From a virus, in the IMG/VR virus record IMGVR_UViG_3300042197_004429, positions 113,313 through 177,312 of that record: 64,000 bases of DNA; one strand, 5' to 3'. This document shows, piece by piece, positions 2 to 12,231 of this stretch. The position numbers and the translations under genes are program-made. The notes below the pieces were generated by a model. That model had not been told where the DNA came from, did not search any database, and saw only the letters and a list, made by a program, of their open reading frames with translations. Position 1 is the first letter of the stretch. The number at the start of each line of letters is the position of its first letter.

Positions 2-730
2 TTAAATTTTCAAGTTGTAAAAACCAAAACAAGTATTGACACCTCGTCTCCAAGATATTGGAAAGTCTGTTCTAAGGTATCAGATATTTCTAAAAATATT
101 CAATTTTTAAAAGAGGATAATATAATTTTTGTAGACTCCGATATTTTTTTTGTTAAACCTATTTTGCCTTTATCGTATGAAGATCACCTCGTTGATAAAT
201 TTTGTTGCTTACCTTACAACACCGGATTTTTTTATTTTAATCATAAATTAGAAAAAAATCAAAAAGTGCTTGAAATTTGGAACGAGACAATAGTTGAAGC
301 TTTAAAAAATGAAAACTTTTATGAAGAACTTCACAAAGTGATACCATATTATCCTTCTAAGAGTTTACATGATGAAATTTGTATGCATTATTTGTTTAAA
401 CAAAAAAAGATAAATAATATAAAAAAATTAGATTTTGATGAAAGTTTTATATTTTCACAAGAACATATTTTTCTTGCAAACTACGGTAAATTTGATAATT
501 TTGAGTTAATATTTAAAAAAATAAAATTTATACACGCTATTACCGCTTTTAATGGCAATAAAAGAGGAATTTTATGTTTATTGATTAAGGAGATAAATGA
601 TTTGATCAATAAATCTTTAAACAAGCGTTTGATCAAAAAAATATTTAGACACGAAATGCCCTTACCTTCTTATTGTATGTCGTCTATAATGAGAATGACA
701 AACAAGCAATTTAATTGTCTACTTAATTAA
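2..730 (+). CDS. GT-A fold glycosyltransferase / nucleotide-diphospho-sugar transferase-like protein, 5'-truncated by the window
   Basis: The frame of ORF 164..730 is open back to position 2. It adds IIFVDSDIFF (DxD motif) upstream of YNTGFFYFN, HDEICMHY and IHA, a layout typical of GT-A enzymes. Confidence 0.6.
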   Translation, partial: LNFQVVKTKTSIDTSSPRYWKVCSKVSDISKNIQFLKEDNIIFVDSDIFFVKPILPLSYEDHLVDKFCCLPYNTGFFYFNHKLEKNQKVLEIWNETIVEALKNENFYEELHKVIPYYPSKSLHDEICMHYLFKQKKINNIKKLDFDESFIFSQEHIFLANYGKFDNFELIFKKIKFIHAITAFNGNKRGILCLLIKEINDLINKSLNKRLIKKIFRHEMPLPSYCMSSIMRMTNKQFNCLLN

Positions 731-2262
731 TCATCTAAAGGAATTGAAATTAATTCTATTTCCTTATCCTTAAAATCCGACAGGGCATCGTTATAGGTGT
801 TACATATAGGTTTTCCCGGACCATTTAAACTTGTATTTATTAAGCACTCGCTCCCGGTCATTTTTCCATATTCGACAAGTAATTCATGTAACCAAGGATC
901 TTTATTTTTATTCACAACCTGAGGTCTGCTGCTGTTGTCTTTGTGTACTATGGCCGGACACTCGGTTTGTGCTGCAAGGGTGCATTCACACTTGAATTGC
1001 ATGTATTCTCCCTTTGGTCCAATAAAGTATCGATCAAAACTCTCTTCTGTGACCATCGGAGCAAGTGGGCGATAATATTCTCTTCCTTTTAGATCTTGTG
1101 AAACACGTTTCAAATTTTGGTATTTACTAGCGTTTGCCAAAATGGATCTAAATCCTAAAGCCCTAGGCCCGCACTCAGCTTTTCCACGAAGTAAGCCGAC
1201 CACTTTATCTTGCGCAATTAATTTTGCTATTTCTTTTGGCTCTTGAACCCCAGTTTTCGGCAAAGGCTCTTGAAGATACATAATTGAAGGAGTGTTCAAA
1301 GCTGGTGGCCATCTTCCTTTATCTAGAAAATAACCATAGCACGCTGCACCTAAAGCCAATCCGCTATCATTCACAGGCGGTCCAAAAACAAAGTCTTTTG
1401 TAAGATTTGATATATTTGTATTTAATTCAAGTGCCAAACATGTTCCGCCACCAACTACTATGCCTAATTCTTTGTTGGGTGTAAAATTTTGTAAGTTTAT
1501 TAGAATTTTTTCCCAAGTAAAATCCATCCATAATTTATATAATTTAGCCGATAATATCATGTCATTTTTACTAATATTTTTATTTTTATTGAAATTAGGA
1601 ACATCTAAGGGCCAAACTTTTTCAAAAATTGAGTAAATCAAACTTGAAACCTCACTGTTTTTAAATGAACCTAAATCTTCATTTAAAAACCCAACGAGAC
1701 CCATTGTTTTTCCAGCAGTGTCTCCTCCCAACAAATTTCCAACAATCCCGCTTGTTGGTATCTTTGGTTCTAGAACTTTTAAAGAAAAACCATCTTCACC
1801 AATAAATCCCCCCAAACAAGAAGATGTCTCCCCATTTGCTGTTGATCCAGACCCATCATAGGCCATACAAAATCTTGTGTCATCATTTTCTCTAAATGAC
1901 CAAGAACTCAAAATATGACATAAATGATGGTTTATGCAAAAATTTGGAAAATAATCACTCGGCAGATGGGAGCCTATACTCGTATCCGACCACTTTGTTG
2001 CTATTATTGGATTAATCCAATAATTTATTGGGTTTGGGTTATTAAAAAAAGAAGGAAGACAAATGATGTCTTTTTTTTGAGGTTTTGGTAAAAATTTTAA
2101 AATGGGATTAATGTTATTGTAATACTTTTGTTTACTAAACCGAGATACTTCGGCATAGAACTCTAGTTCGCCATTTTCATTCAAAACAACTGCCCCGAGG
2201 TCGTGGTTATAGGGATTTATACCAAAATATTTTTTTGTCATAATTAAAATCTCAATAAACAA
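727..2262 (-). CDS. Carbamoyltransferase, NodU/CmcH/TobZ family (copy 1)
   Basis: Motifs NHD, HHLCH, DGSG, GKTMGL, PPVNDSGLALGAA, ECGPRALGFRSILA, KGREYYRPLAP, PAIVHKDNSSRPQ and LINTSLNGPGKPIC. Confidence 0.92.
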   Translation of the reverse strand: MFIEILIMTKKYFGINPYNHDLGAVVLNENGELEFYAEVSRFSKQKYYNNINPILKFLPKPQKKDIICLPSFFNNPNPINYWINPIIATKWSDTSIGSHLPSDYFPNFCINHHLCHILSSWSFRENDDTRFCMAYDGSGSTANGETSSCLGGFIGEDGFSLKVLEPKIPTSGIVGNLLGGDTAGKTMGLVGFLNEDLGSFKNSEVSSLIYSIFEKVWPLDVPNFNKNKNISKNDMILSAKLYKLWMDFTWEKILINLQNFTPNKELGIVVGGGTCLALELNTNISNLTKDFVFGPPVNDSGLALGAACYGYFLDKGRWPPALNTPSIMYLQEPLPKTGVQEPKEIAKLIAQDKVVGLLRGKAECGPRALGFRSILANASKYQNLKRVSQDLKGREYYRPLAPMVTEESFDRYFIGPKGEYMQFKCECTLAAQTECPAIVHKDNSSRPQVVNKNKDPWLHELLVEYGKMTGSECLINTSLNGPGKPICNTYNDALSDFKDKEIELISIPLDD

Positions 2263-2285
2263 ATTTATAAATTATATATAATCTT

Positions 2286-3350
2286 ATGGCTATAATTAAA
2301 TCTTTTTGTAATCTTCCTTGGACCAGAATGAAGATTCACTACAATGGTGATGTTTCTATGTGTTGTCATCAATCTTATTTTAGATTGGGAAATATATTAG
2401 AAGAAGATTGGGATAAAATATGGTTTGGTTCAAAAGCAAAAGAAATTAGAGAAACAACTTTGAAAAATCAACTACATGATAATTGTAAAAAACCTGAGTG
2501 TCCTTTCTTCAACGCAGACTTAAACAAAACACGGTTATTCGACATAAACGATAACGAATACCCATCAGAAATAGAATTTGATCTTCATGCTTCTCATTGT
2601 AATTTTGGAGGTAAAAAAGCTGATCCTGAAAATACATGTATTATGTGTCCCAGATCCTATCCGGAGGTCGCTCAATCTCTAGGCTTAATAAAAGATAATG
2701 CAAATATTATAGTTGAAAAAATTAAACCCATTTTACCGCATATCAATAGTTTGGCTGTCATGGGATTGGCAGAAATTTTTTGGCAAAACAAAATATTTGA
2801 AATTTTTGATTTGTTGTCTTTTAAAGATTATAATAATAAAATTTCTTTTTGGGCCAATACGAATGGATCAGTATTTGACCAAAAATCCGCAGAAAAATTT
2901 TCTGATTATGTTCGAAAAAGTGTTATTTGTTTTTCAATTGACGCCTCTAACAAAGAAACTTATCTTAAGATAAGAAAAAATAATGTTTTTGATAAAGTAA
3001 TAAGTAATCTTAAAAACTGGAATAAAATTAGAAAAAATTTAAACAAACTAGGAGACGACCATCAACTTTCTATTTACAATAATATAAATCTACTAAATGT
3101 AAATGAAGTCTCTGACATGGTGGTAATGGCCAAGGAACTTGAAGTCGATGCAATTTATTTAACTCTTACCCATAATGTTGGTAATTTGCAAAATTTGAAT
3201 ACTCTTGTAATCAATAGTAAGAATTGGCGAATTTTCAGTGAAGCCGAGGAACGGGCAAGAAAAATTGGCGAACAGTTGAATTTCAAAGTTCACATTTGCA
3301 GACCTTTCGATGCAGGTTTTTCACAAAAACTTTATAATATAAGTTTTTAA
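2286..3350 (+). CDS. Radical SAM protein with N-terminal SPASM/twitch-like domain (copy 1)
   Basis: N-terminal FCNLPW..GDVSMCC..LGNI..IWFG..C..C (SPASM-like). Then CNFGGKKADPENTCIMC, GLAEIF, NTNGS and FSIDASNKETYLKIR, typical of the radical SAM core. Confidence 0.8.
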   Translation: MAIIKSFCNLPWTRMKIHYNGDVSMCCHQSYFRLGNILEEDWDKIWFGSKAKEIRETTLKNQLHDNCKKPECPFFNADLNKTRLFDINDNEYPSEIEFDLHASHCNFGGKKADPENTCIMCPRSYPEVAQSLGLIKDNANIIVEKIKPILPHINSLAVMGLAEIFWQNKIFEIFDLLSFKDYNNKISFWANTNGSVFDQKSAEKFSDYVRKSVICFSIDASNKETYLKIRKNNVFDKVISNLKNWNKIRKNLNKLGDDHQLSIYNNINLLNVNEVSDMVVMAKELEVDAIYLTLTHNVGNLQNLNTLVINSKNWRIFSEAEERARKIGEQLNFKVHICRPFDAGFSQKLYNISF

Positions 3351-4885
3351 TAGACTCTACTATTGAAATTTTTACAGAATTTACTGGCTTGTTCAGGTAT
3401 TGAGATTAAATCTAATTCTTTTCCATCCATATCGCTCACAGCATGCTCATAAGTATTACAAATAGGTTTTCCTGCTCTATTTAATGATGTGTTTATGAAA
3501 CATTGATGACCTGTAATTTTCCCATACTCTGTGAGAATTTCATGTAACCAAGGATCTTTTTCTTTGTAAACAACTTGCGGCCTTGAAGATAGATCACGAT
3601 GCACAATTGCAGGCAAATGTTCTTGACATTCTTTTGTACATTCACACCGATACTGCATGTATTCTCCCTTCGGTCCAATAAAGTATTTGTTAAACTCTTC
3701 ATTTGTTACTATGGGTGCAACGGGCCTATAGAACTCTCGTCCTTTTATCGTCTCAGAAACTATTTTTAAATTTTCGTATTTTGTTGCCGATGCAAAAATT
3801 GAACGAAAACCCAAAGCACGAGGCCCAGCCTCGCTTTTTCCACGAAGTAATCCCACCACTTTATCTTGCGCAATTAATTTTGCTATTTCTTTTGGCTCTT
3901 GTGGGCCTTTTTGAGGCAAAGATTTATGAATATCATTAATTGCTGGCGTGCTTATCTTATTGGGCCAACTTTTATTCGCATGAAAATAACCAAAGACAGC
4001 CGCCCCCAAACACAACCCGGTATCATTTATTGGTGGGCAAAAAACCACATCATCTGTGTATTTGGTAACCCTGGTGTTTAATTCTAAAGCGAGTGCTGTT
4101 CCTCCGCTTAATACAATTCCACGATTTTGTTTGTATTTTTCAATATTTTGTTTTAATTTTTCCCAAATTTCTTCAATAATAAATTTATAAAAACCTGATA
4201 TGAATTCCAAATCTGATTGGGATGGGTTATTAAAATGAGGAAAACATGGATCAAAATTATAATAATTCATTGTAGAATTTATTAACTTTAAAAAGTTTTC
4301 TTTGTTAAATTCTAATTTGTTTGGAATAAAACCCGACAGTCCCATTGCTTTTCCAGGTGTGTTGACTCCAAGCAAGTGAGACACGGGTATACTTGTTGGA
4401 ATTGCTATTGATTCGTCAAATTTTTTGAATTCATTTTGATTTATTAATCCTACCAAAGAAGATTTTAAAGGTTTTGAAAAATCTGCCGTTGGCCCACAGC
4501 CGTCAAAAGATATAAATAGTCTTTCGTTATCATTGGGTCTATAAAGCCAAGATGCAAAAGTATGTGCTAAATGATGATCTAAAACAAAATGCAAGCTATT
4601 TCTACCATGTCCACCAAAAGGATTAGATTTTAATTGTCTAACCAACGTTTCATCGTATCCATCCACAGTAAAAGATTCTTCAAGTGCATAAGTCGATGTA
4701 AAAATATATTCTTCGTTAATATCCAGAAGATGCGGGAAAGAGGCTAAAATTGGTCCAATGTTATTTGCCATGCATTTAAATCTTGGTTCATATCTTTCAC
4801 TTTGTGCATAAAATTCTAAATCTCCATTTTCATCAATTATTGCAATTGATGAATCGTGACCCATATGATAGCCTACATATTTCAT
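3347..4885 (-). CDS. Carbamoyltransferase, NodU/CmcH/TobZ family (copy 2)
   Basis: Motifs GHDSS, HHLAH, DGCG, GKAMGL, PPINDTGLCLGAA, EAGPRALGFRSI, KGREFYRPVAP and INTSLNRAGKPIC. Clear paralog of 727..2262. Confidence 0.92.
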   Translation of the reverse strand: MKYVGYHMGHDSSIAIIDENGDLEFYAQSERYEPRFKCMANNIGPILASFPHLLDINEEYIFTSTYALEESFTVDGYDETLVRQLKSNPFGGHGRNSLHFVLDHHLAHTFASWLYRPNDNERLFISFDGCGPTADFSKPLKSSLVGLINQNEFKKFDESIAIPTSIPVSHLLGVNTPGKAMGLSGFIPNKLEFNKENFLKLINSTMNYYNFDPCFPHFNNPSQSDLEFISGFYKFIIEEIWEKLKQNIEKYKQNRGIVLSGGTALALELNTRVTKYTDDVVFCPPINDTGLCLGAAVFGYFHANKSWPNKISTPAINDIHKSLPQKGPQEPKEIAKLIAQDKVVGLLRGKSEAGPRALGFRSIFASATKYENLKIVSETIKGREFYRPVAPIVTNEEFNKYFIGPKGEYMQYRCECTKECQEHLPAIVHRDLSSRPQVVYKEKDPWLHEILTEYGKITGHQCFINTSLNRAGKPICNTYEHAVSDMDGKELDLISIPEQASKFCKNFNSRVY

Positions 4886-4960
4886 TTTTGCCTCACAAAT
4901 CTTATATTTTATAAATGATTTTGAGTTTATTTTTTAATTGCACGTTATAATAAATAAAAT

Positions 4961-6082
4961 ATGTTAAAAACGTCCCACACAATCGAGTCTTTTTGTTCTT
5001 ATCCTTTCACCAGACTAAAGTTTACTCCAGAGGGCGATGTTACCATGTGTTGTTTTCAAACTAGAAAGTGTTTGGGCAATATATTAGAAAAATCTCTTGA
5101 GCAAATTTGGTTTAGCGATTTGGCTAAAAAAATCAGATCAGAGACCGAGAAAGGCCGTCTTCATCGATTATGTGCCAACAATGTTTGTCCATTTTTTTAC
5201 GACACAGACAAAAAAAACTTTGAATTTAATGCTTGTTCGTATCCCATCGAGTTTGAAATTGATCTTCCTACACAACATTGCAATATTGGCGGTGAAAATC
5301 CTAGCGCTAAAAATCCTGCTTGTATAATGTGCGAAAGAAATATGCCTTCATTCAAGCATCAAAAAGATTATTTAAATGAAATATGTAAAAAATTAAAGCC
5401 ATATACAAGATATTTAAAAGCATTACATATACAAGGAATTGCTGAGTCTTTTTGGAAAGATAGAATTTTTGAAATTATAAATATTCTCGGTGTTGAAACT
5501 TATAAAAGAAAAATTCGTATTTCAACAACAACAAATGGAACTCTTATGAGCGAAAAAAGATCAAAAAGGTTTTTAGACTTTCCTCTTTCAACTATAGTGT
5601 GGTCTTTAGATGCATCTACTCCAGAAACTTATAAAAAAATAAGACAAGTAGACATGTATAATAAAATAATTGAAAATCTCAAATTCTACGCAAAAGAAAG
5701 AGATCCTTGCAATCAATTTTTGCATATTCACAATACTATAAACACCATTAATTTAGATGAAGTTGTTGGCATGGTAGAGATTGCTGCTGAAGTCGGAGTT
5801 AATTGCTTAGAATTTAATGCTACTTATGGTGGTCTTGATATTTGTGTAAACAAAAATAATTTTCTTTTATTTAAAGATGCTCAAAATAAAATTATAGAAA
5901 TTTCTCAAAAACTTGGAGTTTATACAATTTTTATGCGTGATTTATACTTGGATTTTGATTCTAATATTGAAAATAATCTTATTCAACTACAGGTTACAAA
6001 AAAAGATGATAATCAAAGCCTTCCAGATTATTTAAAACCAATAGATATTAATTTGTCACCAGACGGACAACTATTTGATTAA
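4961..6082 (+). CDS. Radical SAM protein with N-terminal SPASM/twitch-like domain (copy 2)
   Basis: FCSYPF..GDVTMCC..LGNI..IWFS..C..CPF, then CNIGGENPSAKNPACIMC, TTNGT and SLDASTPETYKKIR. Paralog of 2286..3350. Confidence 0.8.
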   Translation: MLKTSHTIESFCSYPFTRLKFTPEGDVTMCCFQTRKCLGNILEKSLEQIWFSDLAKKIRSETEKGRLHRLCANNVCPFFYDTDKKNFEFNACSYPIEFEIDLPTQHCNIGGENPSAKNPACIMCERNMPSFKHQKDYLNEICKKLKPYTRYLKALHIQGIAESFWKDRIFEIINILGVETYKRKIRISTTTNGTLMSEKRSKRFLDFPLSTIVWSLDASTPETYKKIRQVDMYNKIIENLKFYAKERDPCNQFLHIHNTINTINLDEVVGMVEIAAEVGVNCLEFNATYGGLDICVNKNNFLLFKDAQNKIIEISQKLGVYTIFMRDLYLDFDSNIENNLIQLQVTKKDDNQSLPDYLKPIDINLSPDGQLFD

Positions 6083-6122
6083 CAATAGTAAATATAAGCA
6101 GGACATAATTAAAGGAGGATTT

Positions 6123-6371
6123 ATGTTTTATATACTTGGTTGGTTATTTTATGGTCTTTTAGTAGGCTTAATCGCAAAAGCATTTCATCCCGGAGATGAA
6201 GCAAAAGGTTTTCTTCCAACAATTGGAATAGGTATAGCTGGCAGCTATGTTGGTGGATTAATCAATTATTTAATAGGCGCAGGTGGTAGCCCAATTTCGC
6301 CATCAGGTTTTTTGATGGGAATAGTTGGCGGCGTTTTGTTTTGTTGGATCTATAAAAAATATTTAGCCTAA
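6123..6371 (+). CDS. GlsB/YeaQ/YmgE family (transglycosylase-associated) stress-response membrane protein
   Basis: GWLFYGLLVGLIAKA..PG....G...TIGIGIAGSYVGG pattern. AGGAGG ribosome-binding site precedes ATG 6123, so the track start at 6075 is probably too early. Confidence 0.85.
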   Translation: MFYILGWLFYGLLVGLIAKAFHPGDEAKGFLPTIGIGIAGSYVGGLINYLIGAGGSPISPSGFLMGIVGGVLFCWIYKKYLA

Positions 6372-6419: not shown

Positions 6420-6750
6420 ACCGTGCAAAAATTTTGCTTTTCAATCAAGCCATACACTCAAGGAAGTTTGTGGTTTTTTGACGATTTAAAAAATGGACTT
6501 GTCAAAGAACCCCTGACCGATGGTGTGCCACAGGTCATAACTAGGGCTTGCCAAAAAAAAATCATTAAATCAAAATATCCAAATACATTTTTCAAATTTT
6601 GAATTTAGTGAATTTGTTCTTGATTTTCGAAAGCCACTTAGAAACGGAAATGTTTACCACTGGAAAAAAGAAGGTTTAACGTGTTGGTTTTGCCCAGCAT
6701 TATTTAAATATTTTGTTGTTGCTCCTAAAAAATCTGGTTTTTTCTAAACC
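6420..6750 (+). pseudogene. Frameshifted DUF6717-like gene (pseudogene or homopolymer sequencing error)
   Basis: One frame reads SIKPYTQGSLWFFDDLKNGLVKEP and another reads GNVYHWKKEGLTCWFCPALFKYFVVAPK. Both resemble, from memory, halves of one small conserved family. The frame change falls downstream of an A9 run at ~6553. Confidence 0.5.
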
Positions 6751-6810
6751 AAACAAAAAACTAAAATCAAAATCAGATTTGCTGATTATATTATATTTTG
6801 GTATATTCCG

Positions 6811-6868
6811 GCCCGGTGGTGTGTACGATCTGGTTCAACTCCAGCCTCACATCATCGGGCTTTTTTTT
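6811..6868 (+). ncRNA. Structured element: 13-bp stem enclosing a tRNA-like T-arm, followed by U8
   Basis: GCCCGGTGGTGTG pairs with CACATCATCGGGC (2 G-U pairs). The stem encloses CTGG-TTCAACT-CCAG, and T8 follows 10 nt before ATG 6878. Confidence 0.45.
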
Positions 6869-6877
6869 GGAGATTTT

Positions 6878-8629
6878 ATGGAAAACCAACAAGATGTACA
6901 GGCACACATTGAAAGAGAAGTTCAAAGAAAAACAAGTAGGCTTCTCATACAACACAATGAAGAAATTTCTGAACTAAAAAAAATTATTGAACAGTGCAAA
7001 TCGGATTTGGTTCGTCAACATAACATAATATCCAAATTATCGTCCGAGCCTCTTGTTTATGGCTATTTACTTAAAGTCCACAAGTTAGTGGACCCTGCTT
7101 GTTTTAAAAATAATGATGAAATTATTGTCGTTGATGAAAATAGTCCTCATTTTCAAAAAGGTGGCAAAGTTATTCTTTCTTCAAGTTGGGATAGCGTTGT
7201 TGATCCGGACGGTAGTGTTTTAGTTAGATTATTGGACAACACAGAGGAAAGATTTTTTATAGGTTCAAAACAAGGCCAACCTGCACAAATTCGTTTAACA
7301 CAAAAAGCCGATGGAACATATGCCGTTGTGCAAATTGATGGCAAGCCGTGGGAGATACAAGGCTTGCCTTTTTTAGATCTTTGCGTAGGCGACTCAGTAA
7401 AAGTAAAACCTGACAACAAAGCCATAGTTGATAAAGCAGAGGATTTGCCCGCTGGTCCAATTTGCGTTGTGTCAACCGTTTTAGATCAAAATATAGAAGT
7501 TTTATACAAGGGCGATAAATTTTTAGTTTTCAATCCTAAAAACTTTACTTTAGAAGAGGGCGATAGAGTCCTAACCGACTATAATCTCTTTTCTGTTACA
7601 AAAAAACTCGAAAAAGAAAATCATTCTAAATATAAAATTTCAGAAGATTTGAATGTGAGTTGGGACGATGTTGGTGGGTTAGAAGTTGCAAAACAAGAAT
7701 TAAAGAGTGCTTTAGAGTTTCCTTTTCTTTATCCTGATCTCTTTAAGCATTACAACATGGAAGGTTTGCGAGGAGTATTATTATACGGTCCTCCAGGTTG
7801 TGGTAAGACTCTTCTCGCAAGAGTTTGTGCTCATTCGATTGCAAAAACTCACGGAAAACAAGCAATAGACTCAGCGTACATTTATGTGAAATCACCAGAA
7901 ATTTTAGATAAATGGGTCGGCAATACCGAAAGAGAAATTCGTGAATTGTTTGAACGTGGCAGAAGGCATTATCGTGAACATGGCTATAAGGCTATTCTTG
8001 CAATTGATGAAGCGGATGCAATTATGCCTCAGCGTGGCACACGCAGAAGTAGCGACATAGCCGATACTATAGTGCCAATGTTTTTAGGAGAAATGGACGG
8101 CATTGATAGCGTTCAAACAAAAGAGAATCCAATTGTCGTTTTGATGACTAATCGTGCCGATGTGTTGGACCCCGCTATTACTCGTCCGGGAAGAATTAGC
8201 CGTCATATCAAAATTGATAGACCAAACGAGATTACATCAATTGATATATTAAAAATTCACTCCGTTGAAGTTCCTTTTTCCAAAGAAGAAGAGAAAGAAG
8301 CGATCCTGACCATAACAACAGCCGACGTTTTTTCTAAAAATCATATCTTGTATAGAGTTAACAATGAACATGATTTTACACTTGGAAATTGTGTTAACGG
8401 AGCCATGTTGTCGAATATTTTAGAAATCGCTAAAATGAATGCGTTGCATAGAGATATTGAAAACAACACAACTACCGGCGTGGATTTAGAAGACTTTCGC
8501 TTGGCGGTTAAAAAAGTTTATCGTCAACAAAGAGGATTAAATCACTCCTATGACTTACAAGACTTTGCTGAAAGTTTAGGAATTCAACATCAAAACATGC
8601 AAATTGAACGTTGCTTTGGATCTTTTTAA
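6878..8629 (+). CDS. ARC/Mpa-like proteasome-associated AAA+ ATPase
   Basis: N-terminal coiled coil plus OB-like interdomain. Core motifs SWDDVGGL, GVLLYGPPGCGKTLLAR, KSPEILDKWVGNTEREIR, IDEADA, FLGEMDG and MTNRADVLDPAITRPGR. GGAG precedes ATG 6878. Confidence 0.75.
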   Translation: MENQQDVQAHIEREVQRKTSRLLIQHNEEISELKKIIEQCKSDLVRQHNIISKLSSEPLVYGYLLKVHKLVDPACFKNNDEIIVVDENSPHFQKGGKVILSSSWDSVVDPDGSVLVRLLDNTEERFFIGSKQGQPAQIRLTQKADGTYAVVQIDGKPWEIQGLPFLDLCVGDSVKVKPDNKAIVDKAEDLPAGPICVVSTVLDQNIEVLYKGDKFLVFNPKNFTLEEGDRVLTDYNLFSVTKKLEKENHSKYKISEDLNVSWDDVGGLEVAKQELKSALEFPFLYPDLFKHYNMEGLRGVLLYGPPGCGKTLLARVCAHSIAKTHGKQAIDSAYIYVKSPEILDKWVGNTEREIRELFERGRRHYREHGYKAILAIDEADAIMPQRGTRRSSDIADTIVPMFLGEMDGIDSVQTKENPIVVLMTNRADVLDPAITRPGRISRHIKIDRPNEITSIDILKIHSVEVPFSKEEEKEAILTITTADVFSKNHILYRVNNEHDFTLGNCVNGAMLSNILEIAKMNALHRDIENNTTTGVDLEDFRLAVKKVYRQQRGLNHSYDLQDFAESLGIQHQNMQIERCFGSF

Positions 8630-8647
8630 CAAGGAAAAATAAAAATT

Positions 8648-9148
8648 ATGGACGCTTTAACATCTAAATTTAACATTTACGATATTGAAACTTTGATAGA
8701 GGCTATGGGCGACTGGGAAATGATGGGCAACCATGATTTTCATGTGTTACAAATGATAAAAAATGCACCCATGCCACCAGAAGACTCAGAGGCTTTTGAT
8801 GTTATGAATCAAATAAAAGAAGTTTTTCGTTCAAGAGAAAAAGATATTTTAGCTGGAAGAGCTATGAGGCAAGAAAAGGCAATATTTCTTAAAGCCAAAC
8901 TGCTAATGGTTCGCAGCAAACTTACGAGCGGTCAACTTTTTGACATGGGCGAAAATAGTGATGTTGCGAATCAAATAAACACGAAAGAATCAGCAAAGGC
9001 AATTGTCAAAAAGAATTTAGAAAAATCAAACTTAGAAAAGAAACTTGAACTAGCCGAATATTTCATAAAAGATCTTGGGGTTTGGGATCATTTTCAAAAG
9101 TTTCTATCGGATAGTGCGGGGGCTTTAGATAAAAACAAGACTAAATGA
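8648..9148 (+). CDS. Hypothetical protein
   Basis: 166-aa ORF with AAGGA upstream, co-oriented and tightly packed. Confidence 0.7.
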   Translation: MDALTSKFNIYDIETLIEAMGDWEMMGNHDFHVLQMIKNAPMPPEDSEAFDVMNQIKEVFRSREKDILAGRAMRQEKAIFLKAKLLMVRSKLTSGQLFDMGENSDVANQINTKESAKAIVKKNLEKSNLEKKLELAEYFIKDLGVWDHFQKFLSDSAGALDKNKTK

Positions 9149-10107
9149 AAAATGTAAATATATTTCAAGGCGATTGTATTGATATTGACAAGAGAATCGC
9201 AAGCGAATCCGTTGATTTGGGAATTTTTGATCCCCCCTTTGGTTTGGGTGAGTCTACGTTTGATAAGCATTATAAACGAGACGAAAATAATGTAATCGAC
9301 GGATATAGAGAGGCACCCGAAGATTATGAAAAATGGACCTTTGATTGGCTATCAGAGGCGTGTCGTGTTTTGAAATCAAATGGTTCCATGTACGTTTTCA
9401 TGGGACACACCAATCTTCGACATCTTCTAAACGCTGCTCATAAGTTGAATCTTTTTGAGATTAACCATTTAATATGGAAATATAATTTTGGGGTTTACAC
9501 AAATAAAAAATTTGTGACATCTCATTATCATGTTCTTTATTATAAGAAGTCTAAAAAATCTCAAGTTAAATTTAACACCTTCTGTAGATTTGGCTCTCAA
9601 GAGAAAGACGATAAGAACGGATCTTTATTATATCAAGATTTAGAGGATGTGTTTTTTGTAAATCGTGAATATGCTTTTGGAGAGAAAAAAAATCAAAATA
9701 AGTTACCTGAAGAGGTGATTAGAAAATTAATATTGTATTCTTCAAATGAAAATGATCTTGTTTGTGATTTCTTTATGGGCAACTTCACCACGGCTTTTGT
9801 GGCAAAAAAACTTGGCAGAAAGGTGACTGGATATGAGATTAATAAAAACTCTTATGAACTCAATATGCCCAAGTTAGAAACGGTTGAATACGGTTGTGAT
9901 TTGAAGAAATTAAAAAAGGTTGAAAATTTAAAACCTTTAAATCAAGGGAAAAAAATATCAAAAGAAGAAATTGATTCTATAAAAAAAGATTATCTTTCGA
10001 TGTTAGAAGAAGGATATAAAAAAGGTAATATTCATTTAGAATTACAAAAAAAATATGGGCGAGGTCGTTTTTCAATAAAAAATATTATTGATAAATGTTT
10101 GTTTTAA
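9145..10107 (+). CDS. N6-adenine/N4-cytosine DNA methyltransferase (beta class) with C-terminal extension
   Basis: Catalytic DPPF near the N-terminus. SAM-binding region NDLVCDFFMGNFTTAFVAKKLGRKVTGYEIN. Confidence 0.88.
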   Translation: MKNVNIFQGDCIDIDKRIASESVDLGIFDPPFGLGESTFDKHYKRDENNVIDGYREAPEDYEKWTFDWLSEACRVLKSNGSMYVFMGHTNLRHLLNAAHKLNLFEINHLIWKYNFGVYTNKKFVTSHYHVLYYKKSKKSQVKFNTFCRFGSQEKDDKNGSLLYQDLEDVFFVNREYAFGEKKNQNKLPEEVIRKLILYSSNENDLVCDFFMGNFTTAFVAKKLGRKVTGYEINKNSYELNMPKLETVEYGCDLKKLKKVENLKPLNQGKKISKEEIDSIKKDYLSMLEEGYKKGNIHLELQKKYGRGRFSIKNIIDKCLF

Positions 10108-10145
10108 CCACCAAATACTAAATATATTGTTTAGTATTTGGTGGT
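10107..10145. terminator. Inverted repeat / possible terminator
   Basis: Perfect 16-bp stem ACCACCAAATACTAAA / TTTAGTATTTGGTGGT with a 7-nt loop, between two genes. Confidence 0.5.
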
Positions 10146-10150
10146 AATAG

Positions 10151-10813
10151 ATGCCTTGTTGGAAGCCAGTTATAACAATCTCATGGAAATTTGATTCTCT
10201 TGAATCTTATCAAAATTGTTTAAAAAAAGTTAAATCTCAAATAGATGAGATCATAGACACTGACCCTCATGGTCAAGATTTTGAAGATTTTTCTATACAA
10301 GTAGATCTTGTCAAAATGAAAGATCGCAAAAAGTTAATTCACGTACAAAAATATGACCCGGATGAAATTTTTTCTTTAGTCACACAAGAAGATGAGAAAA
10401 AAGAATTTATTGTTGGAGAAAAAAGTTATTTTGTTCGAATGAATTCAAGTCGTTATCACGTTTTCAAATCTAACAAAAGTTGTGTGTCTTGTGGTTTACA
10501 AGGCAAATATATGATATTAGACATTAATCCAGGCGATATGTGTCCTCACTTTAATTTTTACGCTGAAGAAAATGGGAGACTTGTCTTGATGACAAAAGAT
10601 CACATAATTGCCAAATCCAAAGGCGGAACCAACGACCTGTCTAACTTTCAAACTTGCTGTGCTATTTGTAATAATTTAAAGGCTGATTACGATTTAAGTT
10701 ATGAAAAAGTCAAGGAATTAAGAAAAATTTATAAAAATGACGATAAACTTTCCAAAAAAGAACTTCGTGATTTATTAAATAAAACAAGAGAAAATATGGT
10801 TCCAAAAAATTAA
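10151..10813 (+). CDS. HNH endonuclease-domain protein
   Basis: CVSC ... MTKDHIIAKSKGGTNDLSNFQTCCAICNNLK. Confidence 0.85.
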   Translation: MPCWKPVITISWKFDSLESYQNCLKKVKSQIDEIIDTDPHGQDFEDFSIQVDLVKMKDRKKLIHVQKYDPDEIFSLVTQEDEKKEFIVGEKSYFVRMNSSRYHVFKSNKSCVSCGLQGKYMILDINPGDMCPHFNFYAEENGRLVLMTKDHIIAKSKGGTNDLSNFQTCCAICNNLKADYDLSYEKVKELRKIYKNDDKLSKKELRDLLNKTRENMVPKN

Positions 10814-10816
10814 TTT

Positions 10817-11521
10817 TTACAAAAACTTAAATCTTGATTTTTGATCATCATAGTGGTTGTATTTTAAGTAATTTGATATCACAAAAGCCAGCACAGTACC
10901 CATGTTTGATGCTTCTTCCTTATTTTTTCTAAATTTATAAGGTATTTCTAGTTGCATTGATTGAACCATGGCATCATTGCTATGTTTTCTAAAATATTGA
11001 TTTAAGTTGTTTGTATCTCTACCGGCATATTTGCCACCACCCTTTCCTTCAAATACACTTTTTTTAACAACATTTTCAAAACAATCACAAAATAAATTTT
11101 TCCTCCATAATTGACAAGTGAGACTATCTTTTTTTATCCCCAATCCATAACCTACCACCATAGCAACTTCTTCACCGGCTCTTTTGTGAACTATGTCACC
11201 ACACCCATGAATATAAAAAATATTTAATTCACTTATTTTGTGCCATTTATGAACAATTTTATTTTTTAATTTAATTATTGGCCTAAGAAACTCTTCGTAA
11301 ACTACGTCTTGTTTGCAGTGATCAATTCTATTGCAGTTCGCTTTATCGTTGTTGACATCAACCAACTCTGATCTTTCAAAGCCCCTATTTATAACGGCAT
11401 AACAATTTAGTTCTTTTGCGGCTTGTTCAGCAATAATGTCTGTGTTGGTGTCATCTGCACCATGGGGTGCAACCAACATTACATTTTTTTTACCCAAGAT
11501 TATAGACACACGTTCTTTCAT
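10817..11521 (-). CDS. Hypothetical protein, possible N-formylglutamate amidohydrolase / Zn-peptidase-like fold
   Basis: VMLVAPHG near the N-terminus, FYIHG and SMQLEI. The resemblance is weak. Confidence 0.4.
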   Translation of the reverse strand: MKERVSIILGKKNVMLVAPHGADDTNTDIIAEQAAKELNCYAVINRGFERSELVDVNNDKANCNRIDHCKQDVVYEEFLRPIIKLKNKIVHKWHKISELNIFYIHGCGDIVHKRAGEEVAMVVGYGLGIKKDSLTCQLWRKNLFCDCFENVVKKSVFEGKGGGKYAGRDTNNLNQYFRKHSNDAMVQSMQLEIPYKFRKNKEEASNMGTVLAFVISNYLKYNHYDDQKSRFKFL

Positions 11522-12231
11522 AAATGAATTTTTCTCTTTTTGTTTTTAAAAATGTTAAAAGCTTCATGATTCTTTGTTCTGTTTAAGCCTATGAAATGAT
11601 AACCTTTTCCTTCGCACAATGTATATTCGCAATTTGTTATTGATTCTTTAGGTATTATAATATAATTCTTATTATCCAAAAGTGCAAGAGCGACTAATCC
11701 TTGTTCGTCAAAAGTTTCATTTTTGTCATGCTCATATAGCGCATTTTTTTCCCATTTTTCCCCAACGTAAAATTTTATGTATTTTTCGAAATCGAAATTT
11801 GGAGGCATACCATAAACCCCACTGTTTATACAAAATTTTGGAGGAACATGATTTTCAAATCTCCCGTAAGTTCTCCCTAAATCTTCTAACAACAAAGTGA
11901 AATTATCTTTTTCAAGAAAATCATCTATTTGCTCTATCCTGTCAGTCAGAATTATGTCATTGTCTATTGATATTTCGTGTCTTTTTGAATCTAATCTTGG
12001 TGGGTATAGTTTCCAAGCAACACCCGTTGCTTCTGGCATTCCATTGATTTTTTTTTGTTGTTCTACTAAATTAAATTTTTTCACTTGTTGTGGAAGTTGA
12101 TCTAATTCACAATTATAGCAAATAAACACATCGGCTTGGTAATACTTTAAAAATGAATTGATTGATTCTATCAAACATTCATATCCGTCTTTGCTTGTTT
12201 TTCCAATTGTCCACTTTGCTAAAGGTCTCAT
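11518..12231 (-). CDS. Putative glycosyltransferase (GT-A-like)
   Basis: WKLYP, ISIDNDIIL (DxD), INSGVYG and DEQG motifs. Confidence 0.55.
   Translation of the reverse strand: MRPLAKWTIGKTSKDGYECLIESINSFLKYYQADVFICYNCELDQLPQQVKKFNLVEQQKKINGMPEATGVAWKLYPPRLDSKRHEISIDNDIILTDRIEQIDDFLEKDNFTLLLEDLGRTYGRFENHVPPKFCINSGVYGMPPNFDFEKYIKFYVGEKWEKNALYEHDKNETFDEQGLVALALLDNKNYIIIPKESITNCEYTLCEGKGYHFIGLNRTKNHEAFNIFKNKKRKIHL

What the first reader, a model, noticed from the sequence alone, without database searches (positions are those of the whole stretch)
727..6082. Tandemly duplicated divergent carbamoyltransferase / radical SAM pairs with a non-canonical CX12-13CX2C cluster motif
Seen in sequence: two head-to-head pairs (gaps of 23 and 75 nt). 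Both radical SAM proteins put the SPASM-like domain first. They replace CX3CX2C with CNFGGKKADPENTCIMC (CX12CX2C) and CNIGGENPSAKNPACIMC (CX13CX2C). Glycosyltransferase-like genes flank the region (2..730, 11518..12231). Established: expanded motifs exist (e.g. CX14CX2C in some QueE), NodU-family enzymes O-carbamoylate sugars, and a phage carbamoyltransferase has been shown to modify 5-hydroxymethylcytosine. Inference: an undescribed two-enzyme modification pathway acting on glycans (virion or host surface) or on nucleic-acid bases.
Basis: partly seen in the sequence, partly recalled or inferred. Interest (0 to 1): 0.7.

Follow-up and report, generated by a model that had tools for sequence, protein, structure and literature searches.

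The report
Phage radical-SAM/carbamoyltransferase sugar-tailoring cassette
An uncultured large T4-like phage carries a swappable cassette of two carbamoyl-adding enzymes, each set head-to-head with a never-studied iron-sulfur "radical SAM" enzyme whose cluster-binding loop is unusually long; it sits among sugar-transferase genes and most likely edits a sugar coat whose target is unknown.

Summary
Window 727-6082 encodes two divergent pairs of a TobZ/NovN-type O-carbamoyltransferase (CT) and a radical SAM (rSAM) enzyme. Each rSAM has an N-terminal twitch (half-SPASM) domain and CX12CX2C or CX13CX2C in place of CX3CX2C.

The long motif is a family trait. All 122 close homologues have CX12-14. 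A few family members keep CX3 or CX5, so it is an insertion between Cys1 and Cys2.

The pairs are not a recent duplication, because each CT and each rSAM has a closer relative in another phage. They are half of a four-rSAM island that runs about 2.4 kb upstream of the window. The island also holds a GT8-like glycosyltransferase and lies behind three GT2 genes.

In a phage 85-89% identical in the flanks, window 1548-6073 is replaced. In related loci the rSAM copies sit beside CT, sulfotransferase-like, methyltransferase and GT1-, GT2- and GT25-like genes.

Best reading (0.55): a modular glycan-tailoring cassette. DNA-base carbamoylation is less likely (0.2), because the related phage's thymidylate synthase homologue is the ordinary Asn type. 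Peptide modification is at 0.12.

I found no paper on this family. Unchecked AI notes from this scan report similar rSAM/CT arrays on other phage DNA.

The parts
2..730 (+). 3' part of a 312-aa GT8-like (GT-A, DxD) glycosyltransferase candidate (P0127). The gene starts 209 nt upstream of the window and ends convergent with CT1, with overlapping stops.
   Evidence: full translation from L036. (invariant D115xD117 in six homologues). (AF2 pLDDT 68, pTM 0.72; Foldseek top hits are all GT8: 3tzt, GlyE, glycogenin, LgtC, LARGE1, E about 3e-8). No Pfam or PHROG hit.
727..2241 (-). CT1, a TobZ/NovN/NodU-type O-carbamoyltransferase with an N-terminal Kae1-like and a C-terminal YrdC-like domain. The likely start is the ATG at 2241; the ORF is open to the TTG at 2262.
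   Evidence: Carbam_trans_C 1.2e-48, Carbam_trans_N 24.6 bits. (phrog_1601 over the full length, 2e-68).. Sister to the CT of locus L003.
2242..2285 (.). 44-nt AT-rich divergent intergenic region between CT1 and rSAM1. It contains the 12-nt palindrome AATTTATAAATT at 2262-2273.
   Evidence: Promoter scans were no better than chance.
2286..3350 (+). rSAM1 (P0002): N-terminal twitch domain (Cys 8, 26, 27, 67, 72) followed by a radical SAM core with CX12CX2C at residues 105-121.
   Evidence: Clade with L024_6131 and L031_5260.
3347..4885 (-). CT2 (P0003), a second O-carbamoyltransferase, 48% identical to CT1. HHLAH and DG motifs are kept.
   Evidence: (NovN 4e-30, TobZ 8e-29, GdmN). Sister to the CT of L039.
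4886..4960 (.). 75-nt divergent intergenic region between CT2 and rSAM2. It is too short for a precursor or partner peptide gene.
4961..6082 (+). rSAM2 (P0004): N-terminal twitch domain (Cys 12, 30, 31, 71, 76) followed by a radical SAM core with CX13CX2C (C107, C121, C124).
   Evidence: (AF2 pLDDT 86). (radical SAM fold). Clade with L010, L011_7992 and L001_7971.
6075..6371 (+). Small Gly-rich hydrophobic, probably membrane, protein (weak Transgly_assoc/GlsB-like hit). It overlaps the end of rSAM2 and is the conserved right-hand neighbour of the island in related phages.

Best explanation
This is the variable half of a modular sugar-tailoring island in a lineage of large (177-458 kb) T4-like aquatic phages.

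Shown:
- Each CT has the TobZ/NovN architecture and keeps the metal-site motifs.
- Each rSAM has an N-terminal twitch domain homologous to the auxiliary-cluster domain of BtrN, and a radical SAM core. Its first cluster cysteine sits where the canonical one does. A 9-11-residue insertion separates it from the CxxC.
- The island contains four such rSAM paralogues and a GT8-like transferase. Three GT2 genes lie just upstream and a fourth further upstream.
- The cassette is replaced between near-identical phages.

Inferred:
- The glycosyltransferases build a glycan on a phage or host acceptor.
- Each rSAM cleaves SAM, abstracts a hydrogen from a sugar carbon and, with the twitch cluster as electron sink, oxidises, epimerises or deoxygenates it. 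BtrN, DesII and AprD4 are the precedents for this chemistry.
- Each CT makes carbamoyl-AMP from carbamoyl phosphate and ATP and O-carbamoylates a sugar hydroxyl.
- Swapping of rSAM, CT, methyltransferase and sulfotransferase-like modules diversifies the glycan.
For: - The CTs match solved sugar and natural-product O-carbamoyltransferases (NovN 4e-30, TobZ 8e-29), with HHLAH and DG aligned, and match phrog_1601 over their full length.
- The N-terminal domain matches the BtrN twitch (E 0.003), with the Cys residues aligned.
- The three cluster Cys and the G..E SAM motif are invariant in 30 homologues.
- The AF2 model (pLDDT 86) has a radical SAM fold, Z 14-16.
- Glycosyltransferases sit inside or directly beside the rSAM copies. 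These are GT8-like here and in L003, a weak GT2-like in L031/L025, and GT1-like in L031 and GT25 in L030. Three GT2 genes lie just upstream here and in most related loci, with a fourth further upstream here.
- Other companions are sugar-type tailoring enzymes: methyltransferases and a weak, sub-threshold sulfotransferase-like protein.
- A bacterial trio of true N_Twi_rSAM genes lies beside a double GT4, an AsnB-like amidotransferase and a UbiA-family gene.
- The genome encodes two NDP-sugar epimerase/dehydratase-family proteins.
- The cassette is hypervariable. Flanks are 85-89% identical to locus L003, while window 1548-6073 shows only 63-73% patches.
Against: - No substrate is known for any member of the rSAM family.
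- The fold search does not favour sugar-acting over peptide- or nucleotide-acting rSAMs. DUF512, SkfB, viperin, SuiB, BlsE, anSME, DesII and MoaA lie within about 3 Z units.
- HD, metallophosphoesterase and PRPP synthetase genes nearby, and an HD gene overlapping (and so probably co-translated with) the closest relative of CT2, would fit a nucleotide substrate.
- No sugar-nucleotidyltransferase was found in this genome or in the related phage G003.
- Gene order in phages can be conserved without a functional link.
- The GT8 call rests on a medium-quality model.
Confidence: 0.55

Rival explanations
1. Nucleic-acid or nucleotide modification. The CTs carbamoylate a hydroxymethylated base, as in 5-carbamoyloxymethylcytosine, or a nucleotide. 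The rSAMs remodel the base, the nucleotide or a DNA-linked sugar. The purpose is to protect phage DNA from host nucleases.
For: - A phage CT of this superfamily makes 5cmdC from 5hmC in DNA and RNA (PMC8670742).
- HD phosphohydrolase, metallophosphoesterase and PRPP synthetase genes flank the rSAM island.
- In L039 the closest relative of CT2 overlaps an HD gene and lies near a cpYpsA SLOG protein and two rSAMs.
- Viperin, MoaA and BlsE are among the top structural matches.
- The hypervariability would suit an anti-restriction role.
Against: - No ThyA- or ThyX-family gene is present in the 177-kb record.
- In the 91%-complete syntenic phage G003 and in G001, the single ThyA homologue has the PPCH and PANI motifs. 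That is His147/Asn177, the dUMP type, and not the Asp177 type that marks cytosine-modifying contigs.
- The same paper reports that CTs on unmodified contigs are flanked by glycosyltransferases, as here.
- No hydroxymethylase, kinase or other hypermodification gene is adjacent.
Confidence: 0.2
2. Protein or peptide modification. The twitch rSAMs act on a peptide or a virion protein side chain, as sactipeptide or ranthipeptide maturases, anSME and epimerases do. The CT decorates a Ser, Thr or Tyr hydroxyl or a glycan on that protein.
For: - SPASM/twitch rSAMs are most often peptide maturases. SkfB, SuiB, CteB and anSME are among the top fold matches.
- C39 and M50 peptidases, a ClpX-like ATPase and a gamma-glutamyl cyclotransferase lie in the conserved neighbourhood.
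- GT8 relatives such as GlyE and glycogenin glycosylate proteins.
Against: - There is no room for a precursor gene, since the gaps are 44 and 75 nt and the other junctions overlap.
- No RRE or leader-binding domain was detected.
- The peptidase and ClpX genes are fixed lineage genes several genes away, and they do not vary with the cassette.
- The companions that do vary with the rSAMs are sugar-type tailoring enzymes.
Confidence: 0.12
3. Decayed or non-catalytic copies. The stretched motif no longer binds a cluster, and the genes are relics carried along in a variable region.
For: - The motif is non-canonical.
- rSAM1 scores below the Pfam Radical_SAM cut-off (20.9 against 29.5 bits).
- One copy in L010 lacks the motif altogether.
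Against: - The three Cys, the CN start and the CxMC end are invariant across 122 homologues that are only 40-68% identical.
- The SAM-binding G..E and TNG motifs are kept.
- All four paralogues are intact ORFs.
- CX14CX2C is a working site in QueE (established knowledge; the motif is listed in PMC4389238), and CX4-CX11 variants are catalogued (PMC9477430).
Confidence: 0.03

Closest known systems
NCBIfam NF033640, N_Twi_rSAM (twitch domain-containing radical SAM protein; I found no paper on the family)
   Same: Same order of domains, with an N-terminal twitch/SPASM-like Cys domain and then the radical SAM core. It is the best or joint-best NCBIfam hit for both proteins. Tandem copies beside glycosyltransferases were checked here in one bacterial MAG. 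Unchecked notes from this scan report similar arrays in other large phages.
   Different: Scores are 71 and 64 bits against a cut-off of 170. The relatives checked here have canonical spacing: P0128 has CNLRCKYC and the weaker hits of the profile search have CNLxC[IV]MC. This clade has CX12-14.
BtrN (2-deoxy-scyllo-inosamine dehydrogenase, PDB 4m7s/4m7t), the type twitch enzyme
   Same: The twitch domain is homologous (profile E 0.003) and its cluster cysteines align. The CxxC of the rSAM site aligns to the last two Cys of BtrN's CNRTCWYC. BtrN acts on a sugar-like substrate.
   Different: In BtrN the twitch domain is C-terminal and here it is N-terminal, a permuted order. BtrN has CX3CX2C. 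The similarity is too weak to transfer the reaction.
TobZ / NovN / GdmN O-carbamoyltransferases (PDB 3ven, 9s2t, 7vyj) and NodU/NolO
   Same: Two-domain Kae1-like plus YrdC-like architecture, with HxxxH and DG motifs. E is 1e-25 to 1e-30 to the solved enzymes. The Pfam C-terminal domain scores 1e-48.
   Different: Identity to cyanophage 'Nol-like' CTs is 24-31%. The proteins are about 60-170 residues shorter than TobZ and NovN. The NodU equivalog model scores 127 bits against a cut-off of 1000. The acceptor is unknown.
Phage 5-hydroxymethylcytosine carbamoyltransferase (Yang et al., eLife 2021, PMC8670742)
   Same: It is a phage-encoded CT of the same superfamily that uses carbamoyl phosphate and ATP.
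   Different: That enzyme co-occurs with an Asp177 ThyA-like hydroxymethylase. Here none was found, and the relative's ThyA is the Asn type. That system has no rSAM partner.
QueE with CX14CX2C and the other catalogued CXnCX2C radical SAM variants (RadicalSAM.org, PMC9477430)
   Same: There is an insertion between the first and second cluster cysteine while the CX2C end is kept.
   Different: The family is unrelated (QueE Z 10.7 against 14-16 for the top matches). Here the loop length varies within one family: 3, 5, 12, 13 and 14.

Membership tests
Radical SAM superfamily (PF04055) | Three cysteines that bind the SAM-cleaving [4Fe-4S] cluster, canonically CX3CX2C, in the loop after strand 1 | tested here: met
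   The spacing is non-canonical but the site is there. C107, C121 and C124 are invariant in 30 and in 122 homologues. They lie between strand 97-100 and helix 138-151 of the model. The CxxC aligns to that of BtrN. Family members with CNTTCIMC or CNINPPCIMC show that Cys1 is the canonical one. Cluster binding itself was not tested.
Radical SAM superfamily (PF04055) | Pfam score above the gathering cut-off, and a partial TIM-barrel fold | tested here: met
   rSAM2 scores 34.7 bits, above the 29.5 cut-off. rSAM1 scores 20.9 bits, below it. The fold matches radical SAM enzymes: Foldseek E 4e-9 and VIA Z 13.7-16.4 over about 200-225 residues.
SPASM/twitch auxiliary-cluster domain (PF13186) | Cys-rich domain that binds auxiliary [4Fe-4S] cluster(s). 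SPASM has 7-8 Cys and two clusters; twitch has about 4 Cys and one cluster. It is normally C-terminal. | tested here: met
   PF13186 scores 49 and 44.5 bits against a cut-off of 21.5, at residues 8-72 and 12-73. Only C12 (90%), C30, C31, C71 and C76 are conserved, which makes it a twitch. It is homologous to the BtrN twitch. Its position is N-terminal, which is atypical.
NCBIfam NF033640 N_Twi_rSAM | Whole-protein score at or above the curated cut-off of 170 bits | tested here: not met
   71.2 and 63.8 bits. The copies in G001 and G003 score 23-49 bits, while a Chthonomonas protein reaches 172 bits. These proteins are related to the family but are not members.
NodU/CmcH/TobZ O-carbamoyltransferases (PF02543 + PF16861) | C-terminal YrdC-like carbamoyl-AMP-forming domain | tested here: met
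   PF16861 scores 165 and 164 bits against a cut-off of 27. It aligns to NovN, TobZ and GdmN at 1e-25 to 1e-30.
NodU/CmcH/TobZ O-carbamoyltransferases (PF02543 + PF16861) | N-terminal Kae1-like transfer domain with the HxxxH ... D metal site | tested here: met
   PF02543 is marginal (24.6 and 19.4 bits against a cut-off of 24). HHLCH/HHLAH and DGSG/DGCG are present and align to NovN. H104, H105, H108 and D128 are invariant in six CTs. phrog_1601 covers the full length.
NodU proper (NF041651 equivalog) | Score at or above 1000 bits | tested here: not met
   127 and 123 bits.
5hmC carbamoylation system (PMC8670742) | CT on the same genome as a ThyA-like pyrimidine hydroxymethylase with Asp at E. 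coli position 177 | tested here: not met
   PF00303 and PF02511 are absent from the 177-kb record, which is 74% complete. The ThyA homologues of the syntenic phages G003 (91% complete) and G001 have PANI, that is Asn. By synteny offsets (my inference), the missing part of this genome would hold that gene.
RiPP radical SAM maturases (sactipeptide, ranthipeptide and similar) | Adjacent precursor peptide gene, and usually an RRE/leader-binding domain | tested here: not met
   The gaps are 44 and 75 nt and the other junctions overlap. No RRE-type Pfam or NCBIfam hit was found, and all peptide-maturase models score far below their cut-offs.
GT8 retaining glycosyltransferases (for the gene ending at 730) | GT-A fold with a DxD metal/nucleotide-sugar site | tested here: inconclusive
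   The top Foldseek hits are all GT8 (E about 3e-8, target TM 0.57-0.61), but from a pLDDT-68 model. D115xD117 is invariant. There is no Pfam hit even at E 0.5.

The most novel reading that the evidence does not exclude
The N-terminal-twitch rSAM paralogues form a combinatorial radical glycan-editing toolkit. Each clade would perform a different C-H-initiated change on a sugar (epimerisation, oxidation or deoxygenation), which the swappable CT, methyltransferase and sulfotransferase-like partners then cap. Large phages would exchange these modules to re-code a virion or host-surface (or DNA-linked) glycan in an arms race. The variable Cys1-Cys2 loop (3, 5 or 12-14 residues) lies next to the SAM cluster and would act as a specificity or partner-docking element. 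That would be a new enzymology and a new kind of phage diversity locus.
Probability: 0.3. Interest if true: 0.8.

Novelty: new variant of a known kind. Interest (0 to 1): 0.58.

Why it matters
Radical SAM enzymes perform chemistry that other enzymes cannot, and most families have no known reaction. This family is almost confined to uncultured large phages. It comprises about 190 clusters at 50% identity (E 1e-30 or better), it is missing from cultured-phage records and PHROGs, and I found no paper on it.

Its position among glycosyltransferases, and its replacement between near-identical phages, point to a diversifying sugar decoration. Such a decoration could affect host range, defence evasion or recognition of virions.

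The within-family series CX3, CX5 and CX12-14 is a natural experiment on how much the SAM-cluster loop can be stretched. It is directly testable by mutagenesis.

Tried and rejected
Neighbourhoods came from the search for related loci instead, which finds only pattern-matching relatives (32 loci plus 3 for the CT).
- Cultured-phage searches with the region as DNA and with both rSAMs found nothing.
- The neighbourhoods of the Bdellovibrionota and Chthonomonas homologues of this exact clade were uninformative.
- The fold searches could not single out a functional relative.
- Sigma-70-like and T4-late-like promoter scans were no better than chance. I drew no conclusion on expression timing.
- Recent tandem duplication is rejected. 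CT1 groups with the CT of L003 (support 100) and CT2 with that of L039 (91). rSAM1 and rSAM2 fall in different old clades.
- A strictly co-evolving two-enzyme pair is rejected, because CT clades and partner rSAM clades are not congruent.
- Other scan notes describe a roughly 34-residue partner micro-protein of the CT. It has no room here.
- The diagnostic CT residues W408, G421 and R423 of PMC8670742 could not be applied. The text does not say which residues mark modified contigs.


Full report
**What is there**

The window is part of a 177,312-bp record of an uncultured T4-like phage. It carries rIIA, a DNA ligase, a helicase, a sigma-like factor and two tRNAs, and its GC content is 0.30-0.42.

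Between 727 and 6082 lie four intact genes on alternating strands:

| Gene | Coordinates | Strand |
|---|---|---|
| CT1 | 727-2241 | - |
| rSAM1 | 2286-3350 | + |
| CT2 | 3347-4885 | - |
| rSAM2 | 4961-6082 | + |

The CT1 ORF is open to a TTG at 2262. The ATG at 2241 fits the homologues, so the first divergent gap is 44 nt rather than 23 nt. The second gap is 75 nt.

- CT1 and CT2 are 48% identical, and rSAM1 and rSAM2 39%.
- Pfam finds Carbam_trans_C (1e-48) plus a weak Carbam_trans_N in both CTs.
- Pfam finds an N-terminal SPASM hit followed by Radical_SAM in both rSAMs.
- The quoted motifs are exact, CX12CX2C and CX13CX2C.

**The cluster site**

An alignment of 30 homologues that are 38-60% identical shows two sets of fixed residues (rSAM2 numbering):

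- In the N-terminal domain, C30, C31, C71 and C76 are invariant and C12 is 90% conserved.
- In the core, C107-N108-x-G110 ... C121-x-M123-C124 is invariant, as is the G159..E162 SAM motif.

All 122 close homologues have CX12 (17), CX13 (96) or CX14 (9). None has CX3CX2C anywhere.

A profile search of 1.84 billion representatives gave 186 clusters at E 1e-30 or better. Among the best 150:

- 83 have the long motif.
- A few high-scoring full-length members have CNTTCIMC-type (CX3) or CNINPPCIMC-type (CX5) sites.
- The weaker, more distant hits have canonical CNLxC[IV]MC.

So Cys107 is the ordinary first cysteine, and the family trait is an insertion of 9-11 residues in the Cys1-Cys2 loop. That loop is an indel hot spot.

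The model (pLDDT 86, pTM 0.82) places the motif between strand 97-100 and helix 138-151, where the canonical site lies. A profile alignment puts the CxxC on the last two Cys of BtrN's CNRTCWYC.

Stretched motifs are a known phenomenon. CX4 to CX11 variants are catalogued in PMC9477430, and CX14CX2C is known in QueE (my knowledge; the motif is listed in PMC4389238). Cluster binding here is inferred, not shown.

**The N-terminal domain**

It passes the SPASM cut-off. It has only four or five conserved Cys and matches the BtrN twitch at E 0.003 with the cysteines aligned. That makes it a twitch domain placed before the barrel.

The nearest curated model is NF033640 (N_Twi_rSAM). Scores of 71 and 64 bits fall well short of the 170-bit cut-off.

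**The carbamoyltransferases**

Both match NovN, TobZ and GdmN at 1e-25 to 1e-30, and the HHLAH and DG motifs align. Both cover phrog_1601 end to end.

They are only 24-31% identical to cyanophage 'Nol-like' CTs. A third, cyanophage-like CT lies about 25 kb upstream in the genome.

**Context in this genome**

The cluster runs off the window. Reading from upstream, with L033 coordinates for genes outside the window:

- a GT2
- a ParB-like gene
- PRPP synthetase
- an endonuclease-like gene
- three GT2 genes
- a ClpX-like ATPase
- a gamma-glutamyl cyclotransferase
- rSAM-A (CX14, L033 12934-13995, +)
- rSAM-B (CX13, L033 13988-15142, -)
- a 312-aa protein that ends at window 730
- CT1, rSAM1, CT2, rSAM2
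- a small, probably membrane, protein
- an AAA ATPase

The 312-aa protein has no Pfam or PHROG hit. It has an invariant DxD, and its model (pLDDT 68) hits only GT8 enzymes at the top: 3tzt, GlyE, glycogenin and LgtC, E about 3e-8.

**Relatives**

The rSAM has no match in 50,697 cultured-phage records or in PHROGs. It has hundreds of metagenomic homologues on contigs of up to 691 kb. The protein atlas labels its nearest clusters 94-100% viral.

I recovered 32 loci, 57 rSAM copies in all, with one to five per locus. In the phage loci the island sits in a fixed slot:

- Left of the island: GT2, GT2, GT2, M50 peptidase, ClpX-like ATPase, GGACT and a metallophosphoesterase.
- Right of the island: an HD protein, a C39 peptidase, the small membrane protein, RNA ligase and PARP.

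Inside the slot the content varies. The rSAM copies are interleaved with:

- the CT
- a weak, sub-threshold sulfotransferase-like protein
- three kinds of methyltransferase
- GT8-like, weak GT2-like, GT1-like and GT25 genes
- a LAGLIDADG endonuclease

A tree of 53 copies shows at least five old paralogue clades. The four copies of this genome fall in four of them.

**Is the pairing conserved?**

Partly. A CT of this clade occurs in four other distinct loci (L001, L003/L029, L011 and L031). In each it is head-to-head with an rSAM across a gap of roughly 23-60 nt. However:

- Most rSAM copies have no CT.
- The CT partners come from three rSAM clades.
- CT1 is sister to the CT of L003 (support 100), and CT2 to the CT of L039 (91). 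In L039 the neighbours are an HD gene that overlaps the CT start, and a distant N-twitch rSAM with canonical CNLRCKYC.

The two pairs are therefore old, separately related cassettes set side by side. They are not a recent duplication, and they are not a locked two-enzyme unit.

**Hypervariability**

Against the 458-kb phage G003 (locus L003), nucleotide identity varies sharply along the region:

| Region (window coordinates) | Identity to L003 |
|---|---|
| Up to -1372, and from 6073 onward | 85-89% |
| rSAM-B, the GT8-like gene and the C-terminal half of CT1, up to 1548 | 80% |
| 1548-6073 | only 63-73% patches |

The replaced segment comprises the acceptor-side half of CT1, rSAM1, CT2 and rSAM2. 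G003 has a single CT with an rSAM of another clade in that place.

**Function**

*Glycan tailoring (0.55).* Glycosyltransferase-like genes of four or five families are embedded among the rSAM copies in different loci. The other companions are sugar-type tailoring enzymes. The CTs resemble sugar O-carbamoyltransferases. The twitch domain's nearest solved relative acts on an aminocyclitol. True N_Twi_rSAM trios in a bacterial MAG lie beside a double GT4, an AsnB-like amidotransferase and a UbiA-family gene. The phage also encodes two epimerase/dehydratase-family enzymes.

*DNA or nucleotide modification (0.2).* Its hallmark is missing. The record has no ThyA or ThyX homologue. The ThyA of the 91%-complete syntenic phage is the His147/Asn177 type. 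The paper that discovered 5hmC carbamoylation ties that activity to Asp177 enzymes, and it notes glycosyltransferase-flanked CTs on unmodified contigs. The HD, phosphoesterase, PRPP synthetase and SLOG neighbours keep this reading alive.

*Peptide modification (0.12).* There is no room for a precursor gene and no leader-binding domain.

*Fold comparison.* It cannot decide between these readings. Z is 13.7-16.4 for DUF512, SkfB, Mmp10, viperin, SuiB, NifB, BlsE, anSME, DesII and MoaA.

**Novelty**

I found no paper on this family or on the CT/rSAM module. AI notes from this scan report comparable arrays of N-twitch rSAMs with a CT and glycosyltransferases in many other large-phage genomes (unchecked by me, apart from the general pattern seen in my own loci). 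The module is therefore recurrent, and this locus is one instance of it.

New here are:

- the loop-expanded clade
- the series of loop lengths within one family
- the strictly divergent CT-rSAM arrangement
- the cassette replacement between near-identical phages

I class it as a new variant of known kinds (twitch radical SAM, O-carbamoyltransferase, phage glycan island), with unknown chemistry.

Noticed in passing
L033:12934-15142 (G000:C1:110933-113141, just upstream of the window): Two further rSAM paralogues (CX14 and CX13) lie tail to tail with overlapping stops. They are 96% and 94% identical in protein to those of the 458-kb phage G003. In G003 a LAGLIDADG homing endonuclease (L003:9048-9821) sits between them.
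   Followed up: partly
L010:7093-7998: An rSAM copy of the otherwise most conserved clade lacks the whole Cys motif and sits on a long branch. It may be a decayed or non-catalytic copy.
   Followed up: no
P0224, P0229, P0241, P0242: Proteins of 1,100-1,900 residues carry three to four canonical CNxxCxxC sites and up to six matched stretches. They look like fused tandem radical SAM enzymes related to this family.
   Followed up: no
L039:3744-7482: The closest relative of CT2 starts inside the stop of an HD phosphohydrolase gene (ATGA overlap). It lies beside a cpYpsA SLOG protein and two radical SAM genes. This is a nucleotide-flavoured context, unlike that of the window.
   Followed up: partly
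L037:2870-4417 (G000:C1:86869-88416, minus strand): A third carbamoyltransferase in the same genome. It is only about 27% identical to CT1 and CT2, on a very long branch, and has no adjacent rSAM.
   Followed up: partly
G000:C1:1-100 and about 700-1000: The record starts inside a PETKK pentapeptide tandem repeat (15-nt unit), cut by the contig end. A dCMP-deaminase-like zinc motif (HAE ... PCxxC) follows within 1 kb.
   Followed up: no
window 2262-2273: A perfect 12-nt palindrome, AATTTATAAATT, lies in the middle of the 44-nt divergent CT1/rSAM1 spacer. It reads TATAAAT on both strands. In DNA this AT-rich it may be chance.
   Followed up: partly
window 6713-10813: Downstream of the island lie an AAA ATPase (638 aa), a 166-aa orphan, an N6/N4 DNA methylase and an HNH endonuclease. 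The ATPase is conserved in G003, and 85% nucleotide identity resumes at window 6073.
   Followed up: partly
L016:15362-17008, L015:7606-8295, L003:5926-7242: The conserved backbone of this phage lineage encodes a PARP catalytic domain with WGR, an RNA ligase and a ClpX-like ATPase with a zinc finger.
   Followed up: no
L051:726-12065 (Chthonomonas MAG contig): Three tandem genuine N_Twi_rSAM genes (149-172 bits), each about 520 aa, lie beside a double GT4, an asparagine-synthase-like amidotransferase and a UbiA-family prenyltransferase.
   Followed up: partly
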